Source: Anolis carolinensis (lineage: Eukaryota). From it: a stretch of DNA of 63,223 bases. Both the position numbers and the translations under genes were made by a program. The stretch covers positions 12,566,102 through 12,629,324 of the forward strand of contig NW_026943826.1 in assembly GCF_035594765.1 (NCBI RefSeq), given 5' to 3'. The notes beneath the pieces were generated by a model that was given only the letters and a program-made list of their open reading frames with translations, searched no databases and was not told the origin of the DNA. Positions within the stretch are counted from its first letter, which is position 1, and the number at the start of each line of letters is the position of its first letter. Shown one piece after another: positions 53,842-56,800 of this stretch.

Positions 53842-56800
53842 CTAATATATTAAACCTAATACTACTGGTAATATATAATACTACATTGCGCTATGGTAAG
53901 AATATACTACATTATATATACCATATTACAGTATATATTATATATTATGCTATATTTTTTTCCAGCCGTGGGCGGGAACTTGATCCAGTTTGCGGACATG
54001 GTTCGGCGGGCGACGGGGAGGCTGCCCTCCTTATTCTACAACGGATACGGGTGTTACTGCGGGTTGGGGGGCTCCAAGCAGCCCCTGGACCCCACCGATT
54101 GGTAAGGCCCAGGCTGAGCCTTTCTAAATGTGACCACATCTGAGGATTACTCACATATACTGTATATAGAGGCTAATCCTTTCTATCTCCATGCCGCCCC
54201 CTTGTGGCTGTGTCCGAGCATTGCATTTGTATATATAAACAGAAGCTGATCCTTTCTATTTCTATGCCGCCCCCTTGTGGCCGCATCTCAGCATTGCATT
54301 TGTATATATAAACAGAAGCTGATCCTTTCTATCTCTATGCCGCCCCCTTGTGGCCGCATCTCAGCATTGCATTTGTATATATAAACAGAAGCTGATCCTT
54401 TCTATTTCTATGCCGCCCCCTTGTGGCCACATCTGAGCATTGCTTTCGTATATATAACTAGAGGCTGATCCTTTCTATCTCTATGCCGCCCCCTTGTGGC
54501 TGTGTCCGAGCATTGCATTTGTATATATAAACAGAAGCGGATCCTTTCTATCTCTATGCCGCCCCCTTGTGGCCGCATCTCAGCATTGCATTTGTATATA
54601 TAACTAGAGGCTGATCCTTTCTATCTCTATGCCGCCCCCTTGTGGCCGCATCTGAGCATTGCTTTCGTATATATAAACAGAAGCTGATCCTTTCTATCTC
54701 TATGCCGCCCCCTTGTGGCCGCATCTGAGCATTGCTTTCGTATATATAAACAGAAGCTGATCCTTTCTATCTCTATGCCGCCCCCTTGTGGCCGCATCTG
54801 AGCATTGCTTTCGTATATATAAACAGAAGCTGATCCTTTCTATCTCTATGCCGCCCCCTTGTGGCCGCATCTGAGCATTGCTTTCGTATATATAAACAGA
54901 AGCTGATCCTTTCTATCTCTATGCCGCCCCCTTGTGGCCGCATCTGAGCATTGCTTTCGTATATATAAACAGAAGCTGATCCTTTCTATCTCTATGCCGC
55001 CCCCTTGTGGCTGCATCTGAGCATTGCATTCTTATAGAGAGGCTGATCCTTTCTATCTCTATGCTTCTGTATTGTGCTTGCATCTGAGCATTGCATCCAC
55101 ATATAACTATAGAGCTGATCCTTTCTATCTCCGTGCCACCCTCTTGTGGCTGCATCTGAGCATTGCATTCTTATATAGAGAGGCTGATCCTTTCTATCTC
55201 TATGCTTCCCTATTGTGCTTGCATCTGAGCATTGCATCCACATATAACTATAGAGCTGATCCTTTCTATTTCTATGCCGTCCCCTTGTGGCTGCGTCCGA
55301 ATATTGCATTTTTATATATAACTAAAGGCTGATCCTTTCTATCACTACTCCGCCCCCTTGTGGCTGCATCTGAGCATTGCATTCGTATATAGAGAGGCTG
55401 ATCCTTTCTAACTCCATGCTGCCCCCTTGTGGCCGCATCTGAGCATTGCTTTCGTATATATAACTAGAAGCTGATCCTTTCTAACTCCATGCTGCCCCCT
55501 TGTGGCCGCATCTGAGCATTGCTTTCGTATATATAACTAGAGGCTGATCCTTTCTAACTCCATGCTGCCCCCTTGTGGCCGCATCTGAGCATTGCTTTCG
55601 TATATATAACTAGAGGCTGATCCTTTCTATCTCTATGCCGCCCCCTTGTGGCTGCACCCGAGTACTGCATTCATATATATAACTAGAGCAATGATGGGCA
55701 ACCTTTTGCGCTTGGTGTGTCAAAATTCACCAAAAAATCTAGCACGACTTGGGTGGTGTGTCACTTTGAGAGAAAAAAAACCCATATGTATAGTTTAAAT
55801 AACAAAAATGTATAAGTGTAATATATAATTGTATTTAATAAATCAAAAACTATCTATTCTAGTTTCAATGCCGTCATGAATAATAAATAATATAATCAGA
55901 ATATGATTATATTATTAATATATGATATTAATATCTATGCCGCCCTCTTGTGTCTGCACCTGAGCATGACACTCATATAGAGAGAGGCTAATCCTTTCTA
56001 TCTAGGCTGTTGCCCCCTTGTGGATTCATCCAAGCATTGCATTCCTATGTATAACTAGAGGCTGATCCTTTCTAGCTCTCTGCTGCCCCCTACTGGCTGC
56101 ACCCGAGTACTGCATTCATACAAATCTACGGGCCGGCAGCTAATCCTTTCTAACCATCTTATCCCAGGTGCTGCCAGGCCCACGACTGCTGCTACGGGCG
56201 GGCGTCGGAGCTCTCCTGCAACCCCAAAATGGAGATGTATTCCTACTCCTTCCAGGGAGGAACCATCGTTTGCGGTAGGCTAATAAACATAAGGAGGAAA
56301 TCATTGAAAACAGTTGCTGGGTGAAGTGGCCCTCTCCGCCCAGCAAGAGGGCCACTTCACCCTGGTGGTGTACGAGTGGGAAGAGGGGAAGACCTATCTA
56401 TCTATCTCTTTAAGCATGTGCGTTCATATGCCTGTCCTGCAAAATCGATGGGTGAAGTGGCCCTCTCCGCCCAGCAAGAGGGCCACTTCACCCTGGTGGT
56501 GTATGAGAGGCGCGGAAGACCTATCTATGTATCTATCTATGAAAGTATGTGCGTACATACGCCTGTACTGAAAAATCGATGGGTGAAGTGGCCCTCTCCA
56601 CCAGCAAGAGGGCCACTTCACCCTGGTGGTATACGAGTGGGAAGAGGGGAAGACCTATCTATCTATCTATCTATCTATCTCTTTAAGTATGTGCGTTCAT
56701 ATGCCTGTCCTGCAAAATCGATGGGTGAAGTGGCCCTCTCCGCCCAGCAAGAGGGCCACTTCACCCTGGTGGTGTATGAGAGGAGCGGAAGACCTATCTA

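What the first reader, a model, noticed from the sequence alone, without database searches (positions are those of the whole stretch)
54168..56120. Tandemly amplified, single-orientation CTCF site array at the edge of the PLA2 cluster
Seen: a 73-bp unit in which about 20 copies carry CCACAAGGGGGC(G/A)G on the minus strand, one mismatch to CCASYAGRKGGCRS, many with TGCAATGC upstream. The last copy (56083-56114) is a perfect core CCAGTAGGGGGCAG with TGCAGTAC starting 18 nt upstream. Established: this is the CTCF core plus the zinc-finger 9-11 upstream module, and motif orientation sets loop direction. Inference: one ancestral site was amplified into a strong boundary pointing back over the PLA2 genes and separating them from housekeeping OTUD3. 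Copy number could tune insulation or PLA2G2E elongation and splicing.
Basis: partly seen in the sequence, partly recalled or inferred. Interest (0 to 1): 0.72.

Follow-up and report, generated by a model that had tools for sequence, protein, structure and literature searches.

The report
Intron made of CTCF binding repeats
One intron of a lizard phospholipase gene consists almost entirely of about two dozen same-direction copies of a near-ideal binding site for the genome-folding protein CTCF; it was probably multiplied by a local habit of introns to duplicate their own DNA, and it may act as a chromatin boundary, but binding has not been shown.

Summary
Intron 2 (54102-56167) of an intact PLA2G2E-like gene is a 73-bp minisatellite of 25 units. 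Twenty-two carry a minus-strand CTCF site (18 at 22 bits or more, recalled matrix). The sites fit the all-11-finger structure: upstream-module contacts in 21 of 22, the ZF1 triplet GAG in 16 of 22, and CpA at the methylation-sensitive C2 in 22 of 22.

The amplification needs no special cause. Tandem repeats cover 51% of the window and at least half of 10 of 18 introns. Arrays are local, and splice junctions are copied. This resembles the intron 'stuttering' described in bird dot chromosomes.

The boundary claim is weaker than stated. The window has no strong convergent partner site. Rattlesnake ChIP shows no motif-verified CTCF peak inside PLA2gIIE, only 5-8 kb away on the OTUD3 side. Evidence for selection on the motifs is mixed (P 0.006-0.34).

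Verdict: a real, probably bound CTCF array, amplified largely passively, and plausibly a left-facing loop anchor. It is a new member of a known kind. Occupancy, copy-number variation and effects on expression are untested.

The parts
54102..56167 (+). Intron 2 of the PLA2G2E-like gene (GT-AG, 2066 bp), almost wholly built of the 73-bp unit
   Evidence: Splice sites and phases give an intact 4-exon frame; anchors run from 54113 to 56139
54172..55688 (-). Homogeneous block of 21 units, 19 with a CTCF site; includes 5 identical units (54610-54974) and a near-identical trio (55397-55615)
55042..55254 (-). Units 55042 and 55183 have a destroyed core (one lineage, 97% identical to each other) and flank the weakened unit 55114
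   Evidence: scores -8.5, 3.5 and 19.0 bits; alignment
54113..54171 (-). 5'-most partial unit lacking the 16 bp that hold the core
   Evidence: alignment
55689..55933 (.). Unrelated insert: start resembles a hAT-type MITE end (recalled), followed by AT-rich sequence; no second terminal repeat found
   Evidence: single copy in the window
55934..56060 (-). Two old diverged units with weaker sites (18.6 and 16.2 bits)
56076..56114 (-). Last, most diverged full site: upstream module TGCAGTAC at -18, perfect core 56083-56096, ZF1 triplet GAG
56139..56167 (+). Terminal anchor copy, inferred to be the branch point and pyrimidine tract of the real acceptor; the same 14-mer starts every unit and is the least variable part of the unit
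   Evidence: the branch-point role is inferred from a recalled consensus
52028..58264 (+). PLA2G2E-like gene, coding exons 52028-52073, 53966-54101, 56168-56274, 58128-58264
   Evidence: frame intact; best PDB match of exon 2 is group IIE PLA2, by a narrow margin (E 3.3e-10 vs 4.4e-10); synteny with OTUD3 (PMC4280545)
56318..58075 (.). Second array filling intron 3: 136-bp unit with a perfect 17-bp inverted repeat; only weak CTCF-like hits (11.5-11.7 bits)
60108..62080 (-). Last exons of a convergent gene, taken as OTUD3
   Evidence: recalled C-terminal likeness plus synteny (PMC4280545); no Pfam hit; not confirmed by a tool
6263..22143 (-). CAMK2N1 and MUL1 left of the PLA2 cluster, with repeat-filled introns; MUL1 introns carry copies of their own splice junctions
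   Evidence: Pfam CaM-KIIN and GIDE plus RING

Best explanation
A genuine high-affinity CTCF site lay in a short intron 2 of PLA2G2E, next to the branch point. The local intron expansion that has inflated most introns in this region (stuttering-like: slippage or unequal exchange, probably seeded by the repeated 14-bp anchor) copied it repeatedly, first into about nine old diverged units and later into homogeneous runs. Each 73-bp unit holds a complete ~40-bp site for all 11 fingers, and the methylation-sensitive C2 is never a CpG, so CTCF most likely occupies several units in most cells. Occupied, co-oriented sites would stall cohesin arriving from the PLA2/MUL1 side and give a left-facing anchor between the PLA2 promoters and OTUD3. 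The anchor function rests on having a site; the high copy number is mainly a by-product, with at most mild selection against losing sites.

Shown: sequence, orientation, array history, regional amplification. From known CTCF biochemistry: binding competence and direction. Inferred: occupancy, insulation, origin of the first site.
For: 22 sites, 18 of them at 22 bits or more. The upstream module sits at the 6-bp spacing, within the published linker range (PMC12885311). The structure-defined upstream contacts (PMC10484683), shifted by one base, are kept in 21 of 22 sites, and ZF1's GAG at core positions 19-21 in 16 of 22. C2 is CpA in 22 of 22; C2 is the methylation-sensitive position and C12 is not. 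A 68-bp element is said to include all known CTCF binding surfaces (PMC11417384), which fits the 73-bp period. Amplification is regional: 51% of the window, 34 arrays, 10 of 18 introns at 50% or more, introns 1 and 3 of this gene 70% and 95%. Some retention of motifs: 17 of 19 distinct units score 16 bits or more, against 8 simulated when the rate comes from non-motif columns without the anchor (P 0.006-0.009); the last copy differs from the array consensus only at three tolerant positions (P 0.015). In rattlesnake the PLA2 cluster lies in a CTCF loop (PMC9248877), with bound peaks on the OTUD3 side of PLA2gIIE.
Against: No occupancy, Hi-C or expression data for this species were obtained. No convergent plus-strand partner above 12.2 bits lies in the window. 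The selection signal disappears when the anchor is included in the neutral rate (P 0.08-0.10) or when the dead lineage is counted (P 0.34); the core's tree length (1.55) lies between the two non-motif values (1.25 and 1.89). All four CpG columns show TpG and CpA derivatives, which points to germline methylation, and some human motif-rich satellites show no CTCF signal (bioRxiv 10.64898/2026.07.18.739380). Rattlesnake has no verified peak in the gene body. The best-conserved part of the unit is the anchor, not the CTCF core, which this explanation does not account for.
Confidence: 0.5

Rival explanations
1. Selected, dosage-tuned boundary: copy number was favoured because more co-oriented sites insulate the inducible PLA2 genes better from OTUD3, replacing the sites that vipers keep a few kb further on.
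For: Insulation rises with the number of strong sites in models and insertion experiments (PMC11828424; PMC7087399). The upstream motif marks strong insulators. Motif retention reaches P 0.006-0.015 in some tests. The lizard has no site above 13.2 bits between the array and the window end, whereas rattlesnake has two verified peaks at the matching edge.
Against: Nearly every neighbouring intron is amplified without any CTCF motif. Dead and deleted units persist. The selection tests are not robust (P up to 0.34). No partner site lies in the window. A single site with an upstream motif can already block an enhancer almost fully.
Confidence: 0.2
2. Silent relic: the array is methylated, nucleosome-packed repeat DNA in a tissue-restricted gene body, CTCF rarely binds it, and it has no architectural role.
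For: CpG decay at all four CpG columns (30 TG and 8 CA against 28 CG unit-cells; GpC control 7 and 3 over 8 columns). CpG observed/expected is 0.54, no higher than the window's 0.56. There is precedent for motif-rich satellites without binding. No orthologous bound site in rattlesnake.
Against: C2 is CpA in all sites, so direct methyl-blocking is not expected. Near-maximal scores are kept in old lineages that are 60-80% identical to one another.
Confidence: 0.2
3. The array matters mainly to PLA2G2E RNA processing. Each unit repeats a branch-point-like motif and pyrimidine tract, with the first AG 42 nt on, and bound CTCF pauses RNA polymerase II, so copy number tunes splicing or output of this gene more than folding.
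For: The anchor is the least variable part of the unit (3 changes in 14 columns against 15.8 expected, P 2e-5, window chosen after the fact) and matches the sequence before the real acceptor. 12 of 15 units examined have their first AG 42 nt after the putative branch A, and 3 of these are CAG.
Against: No RNA evidence was obtained. Most of those AGs are GAG, a poor acceptor (recalled). The anchor's constancy could come from being the exchange point of the duplications.
Confidence: 0.1

Closest known systems
Tandem co-oriented CTCF arrays at Pcdh and Igh (Jia 2020, PMC7087399; passages read)
   Same: Many same-direction sites at the edge of a gene cluster, facing it; expected to act as a permeable multi-step cohesin stop
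   Different: Those sites are spread over kilobases and are not copies of one minisatellite unit (recalled), and binding and function are proven there. Here the spacing is 73 bp, the array is inside an intron, and nothing is proven.
CTCF-bearing tandem repeats: DXZ4 (PMC3491370, search listing and abstract start only), human gamma satellite and rDNA (bioRxiv 10.64898/2026.07.18.739380, passages); Firre and DXPas34 (recalled)
   Same: A repeat unit carries a CTCF motif, so motif number follows copy number; occupancy may depend on chromatin state
   Different: Much shorter unit, about one full-length site per 73 bp, and it makes up a whole intron of a protein-coding gene
Sequence stuttering of bird dot-chromosome introns (PMC12954441; passages read)
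   Same: Introns filled by imperfect local repeats of tens to hundreds of bases, bounded by exons, sometimes copying a splice junction; GC-rich exons
   Different: Reported for birds, with gerbils as the one exception the authors name. Here it is in a lizard-like genome, in a region whose chicken counterpart is on chromosome 21 (not a dot chromosome, recalled). The copied exon parts are only about 5-13 nt, and length polymorphism is untested.
CTCF loop around the rattlesnake PLA2 cluster (Perry 2022, PMC9248877; passages and supplementary files 2 and 6 in part)
   Same: Same syntenic cluster; CTCF-bound sites on the OTUD3 side
   Different: No motif-verified peak inside PLA2gIIE; the cluster sits in the centre of a TAD, not at a TAD border

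Membership tests
High-affinity CTCF site (core + upstream module) | Core matches the ZF3-7 consensus | tested here: met
   18 of 22 sites at 22 bits or more with a recalled MA0139.1 matrix; 18 array matches to the IUPAC consensus
High-affinity CTCF site (core + upstream module) | ZF9-11 upstream module at a 5-6 bp linker | tested here: met
   Starts at -18; GC, T and C contact positions each kept in 21 of 22; 5-7 of 10 matches to the recalled consensus in the 4 sites scored
High-affinity CTCF site (core + upstream module) | ZF1 triplet GAG at core positions 19-21 (optional) | tested here: met
   16 of 22 (position from PMC10484683)
High-affinity CTCF site (core + upstream module) | Occupied by CTCF and cohesin in cells | not testable with these tools
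   No ChIP data for this species found (one search listed 2 unrelated papers)
Loop anchor / insulating boundary | Convergent partner site | tested here: inconclusive
   None above 12.2 bits on the plus strand in the window; six N gaps left of the array and DNA beyond position 1 are unseen
Loop anchor / insulating boundary | Hi-C insulation minimum or enhancer blocking | not testable with these tools
   No contact data available
Loop anchor / insulating boundary | Orthologous bound site in other squamates | tested here: not met
   Rattlesnake venom gland: no verified peak from mi7:3,017,302 to 3,026,815, which contains the PLA2gIIE TSS at 3,022,112; viper IIE genes span about 2.6 kb. One species and one tissue only.
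Loop anchor / insulating boundary | Purifying selection on the motifs | tested here: inconclusive
   P from 0.006 to 0.34 depending on the columns and units used
Sequence stuttering (bird dot chromosomes) | Introns heavily covered by imperfect tandem repeats | tested here: met
   Median coverage 0.57; 10 of 18 introns at 0.5 or more; one intron boundary (OTUD3) unconfirmed
Sequence stuttering (bird dot chromosomes) | Repeats strictly local | tested here: met
   21 of 25 arrays have no hit more than 1.5 kb away in the window; 3 of those 21 gave no hits at all, so 18 of 22 informative. Genome-wide dispersal not tested.
Sequence stuttering (bird dot chromosomes) | Occasional copies of exon edges with the splice site | tested here: inconclusive
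   2 of 16 junctions have copies in the adjacent intron (5 and 28; 0 in shuffles), but the exon parts are shorter than the paper's 20-nt cut-off
Sequence stuttering (bird dot chromosomes) | Intron length varies among individuals | not tested
   No reads were laid on the locus

The most novel reading that the evidence does not exclude
Intron sequence stuttering, so far described in birds and gerbils only, also operates in a lizard, and it manufactures dense, copy-number-variable CTCF clusters. Here it turned one all-11-finger site into about 22 bound, co-oriented sites. These replace the cluster-edge sites that vipers keep 5-8 kb away, so insulation of the PLA2 cluster would differ between individuals according to repeat length.
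Probability: 0.2. Interest if true: 0.7.

Novelty: new member of a known kind. Interest (0 to 1): 0.45.

Why it matters
If bound, this is a natural experiment in CTCF dosage. About 22 near-ideal sites at 73-bp spacing sit in one intron, probably variable in number, beside the gene cluster from which viper venom PLA2s arose. It would allow a direct test of whether site number sets insulation in a native locus. Separately, the window looks like the intron stuttering reported for bird dot chromosomes. A lizard case would widen that phenomenon and offer a route, besides transposons, by which CTCF clusters arise. I found no paper on this array or on stuttering in lizards in searches, which cover open-access text only.

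Tried and rejected
No whole genome is held, so dispersal of the unit outside the window and any partner site beyond position 1 are untested.

The metagenome scan with a three-exon PLA2 alignment gave 16 loci. None is a recognisable amniote ortholog (they look like invertebrate, fish or intronless genes), and none has a CTCF hit above 12 bits. Uninformative.

Sequencing runs: no RNA holder listed. No reads were laid on the locus, so copy number, polymorphism, splicing and a second species stay open.

Rfam over 38000-56100 found nothing. OTUD3 could not be confirmed by Pfam, and the protein atlas gave no answer. Intron 2 of the three paralogous PLA2 genes has no strong site, so I rejected a paralog-shared ancestral site. 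I rejected the intron-3 array as a second CTCF array (11.7 bits at best). I rejected a chance motif (p about 3e-9 per position, plus the upstream module and the ZF1 triplet). An assembly artefact is unlikely for the 3' diverged part but not excluded for the 5 identical units.

One paper look-up hit a wrong paper, one paper was not held, and the DXZ4 outline timed out. Supplementary file 1 of PMC9248877 could not be searched and file 2 was cut when stored; loop-anchor coordinates and motif strands there may bear on the rattlesnake comparison.

Full report
Setting. Six-frame scans and Pfam place CAMK2N1 and MUL1 (minus strand) left of four group-II PLA2 genes (plus strand). The last PLA2 has coding exons 52028-52073, 53966-54101, 56168-56274 and 58128-58264 in an intact frame. 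Its exon 2 matches group IIE PLA2 best among solved structures, by a narrow margin. The convergent gene ending near 60108 is taken as OTUD3 from recalled likeness and from the conserved IIE-OTUD3 order (PMC4280545, passages); no tool confirmed it. That the animal is an Anolis-like lizard is my recall of its repeat families and comes from no call.

The observation. TRF finds period 73, 21 copies, 54168-55682. The consensus pattern matches 19 places, 18 of them in the array and all on the minus strand. A scan with a recalled MA0139.1 matrix gives 47 hits above 8 bits in the window. Twenty-two lie in this intron, all minus, at 16.2-26.3 bits, 18 of them at 22 or more. The best elsewhere are 16.8 (minus, MUL1 promoter region) and 13.2; the best plus-strand hit is 12.2. 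A 14-bp anchor occurs 25 times, from 11 nt after the donor to 29 nt before the acceptor, and nowhere else in the window. So the repeat is the intron: 23 full units and 2 partial ones, interrupted by a ~245-bp insert. Two full units have dead cores and the 5' partial unit lacks the core. The diverged 3' part is held at half or more of its words by 10 of 24 listed runs, from 5 studies besides the possible source.

Quality of the site. The structure paper (PMC10484683, passages) assigns ZF7-ZF1 to seven triplets from core position 1, with GAG at 19-21 for ZF1, and names upstream base contacts for ZF9-11. GAG is at 19-21 in 16 of 22 sites. With a one-base longer linker, the upstream GC, T and C positions are each kept in 21 of 22, including the AGCAATGC variant. 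The upstream 8-mer is TGCAATGC in 9, AGCAATGC in 9, TGCAGTAC in 2 and other in 2. C2, the methylation-sensitive base, is followed by A in 22 of 22; the core CpG falls at the insensitive C12. Each unit therefore holds a ~40-bp site for all 11 fingers. Upstream-module sites are the strong enhancer blockers (PMC12885311, PMC11417384; passages). Binding in vitro is very likely; binding in cells is inferred.

History of the array. Edge units are 59-81% identical to the rest, while central runs are 89-100% identical, with 5 identical neighbours. This points to old duplications followed by recent expansion. All four CpG columns show both TpG and CpA derivatives, far more than GpC controls (counts are units, not events), suggesting germline methylation. 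Tests for selection used 19 distinct units, after collapsing identical copies and dropping the core-less partial. High-information core columns show 7 changes against 9.0 expected (P 0.34). Without the dead lineage they show 3 against 7.6 (P 0.054), or against 9.3 if the anchor is excluded (P 0.007). Simulations along the tree give P 0.08-0.10 with all 36 non-motif columns and P 0.006-0.009 with the 22 outside the anchor. The last copy differs from the consensus core at three tolerant positions only (P 0.015). Gene conversion violates the tree and the sample is small, so this is suggestive at most. The anchor is the most constant part (3 changes in 14 columns, P 2e-5, window chosen after the fact). 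It equals the sequence before the real acceptor, and its constancy is unexplained.

Why it was amplified. Tandem repeats cover 51% of the non-N window, with 34 arrays of period 20 or more. Across 18 introns the median coverage is 0.57 and 10 reach 0.5; this gene's introns are 0.70, 0.73 and 0.95. 21 of 25 larger arrays have no match more than 1.5 kb away in the window; 3 of the 21 gave no hits at all. Two of 16 splice junctions are copied into the adjacent intron, 5 and 28 times, against 0 in shuffles; an 8-mer spanning a PLA2 donor occurs 33 times locally and twice elsewhere. This matches the sequence stuttering described for bird dot chromosomes, which its authors found otherwise only in gerbils (PMC12954441, passages). 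The third defining feature, length variation among individuals, was not tested. Only 1 of the 34 arrays carries strong CTCF sites, so a site caught in such an intron would be multiplied without any selection for number.

Boundary role. Minus-strand sites face the PLA2 cluster by the convergence rule (established knowledge), and the array lies between all PLA2 promoters and the OTUD3 side. More strong co-oriented sites are expected to insulate more (PMC11828424, PMC7087399; passages). Against a tidy PLA2 domain, the window holds no strong convergent partner, so a loop would probably include MUL1 and CAMK2N1. In rattlesnake venom gland the cluster, PLA2gIIE included, lies in one CTCF loop in the centre of a TAD (PMC9248877, passages). 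Its supplement gives the PLA2gIIE TSS as mi7:3,022,112 and motif-verified peaks at 3,013,986-3,015,005 and 3,016,342-3,017,301, then none until 3,026,816. Viper IIE genes span about 2.6 kb. So no bound site lies in that gene's intron 2; the nearest are 5-8 kb away, on what synteny makes the OTUD3 side. This argues against a conserved squamate intron-2 site, in one species and one tissue, and leaves open positional conservation with site turnover.

Comparison and verdict. It works like a tandem co-oriented CTCF cluster and belongs, by sequence, with CTCF-bearing tandem repeats (DXZ4 from a search listing; gamma satellite and rDNA from passages, where some motif-rich satellites showed no binding). 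Membership as a boundary is not established. Odds: bound array amplified mostly passively 0.5; selected dosage-tuned boundary 0.2; silent relic 0.2; mainly an RNA-processing effect 0.1. New member of a known kind, interest 0.45. The bolder reading, stuttering in a lizard producing variable CTCF clusters, has probability 0.2 and interest 0.7 if true.

Noticed in passing
window 1-63223: Region-wide intron and intergenic repeat expansion resembling avian sequence stuttering, in a lizard-like genome; possibly more novel than the CTCF array itself
   Followed up: partly
window 19357-22143: The MUL1 5'UTR intron is filled with 28 copies of its own acceptor junction, in both orientations
   Followed up: partly
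window 17626-18887: The array in a MUL1 intron carries 5 copies of the adjacent exon end plus splice donor; potential decoy donors
   Followed up: partly
window 32003-33596: Introns 1 and 2 of the second PLA2 hold 33 copies of an 8-mer that matches the exon-2 end and donor
   Followed up: partly
window 56318-58075: Intron 3 array of 13 units of 136 bp, each with a perfect 17-bp inverted repeat and a 9-10 nt loop; could form serial hairpins in the pre-mRNA
   Followed up: no
window 49600-50360: CpG-rich 188-bp repeat with CCAAT-, GC-box- and NRF1-like words (recalled motifs), about 2 kb upstream of the PLA2G2E start; looks like a duplicated promoter
   Followed up: no
window 42225-47570: Seven spaced copies of an 18-bp block next to a minus-strand donor-like sequence, beside the 99-bp x 33 array at 38735-42041; perhaps repeated non-coding exons; no Rfam match
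   Followed up: partly
window 22197-22215: Single minus-strand CTCF-like site (16.8 bits) overlapping a CRE-like word at the MUL1 promoter
   Followed up: no
window 54172-55688: The 73-bp period equals 7.0 helical turns at 10.4 bp per turn, so bound sites would lie on one face of the DNA; may be coincidence
   Followed up: no
window 36002-38390: The third PLA2 paralog has exon 3 beginning CCQILNCCY, without the catalytic His-Asp pair; probably an inactive PLA2-like protein
   Followed up: no
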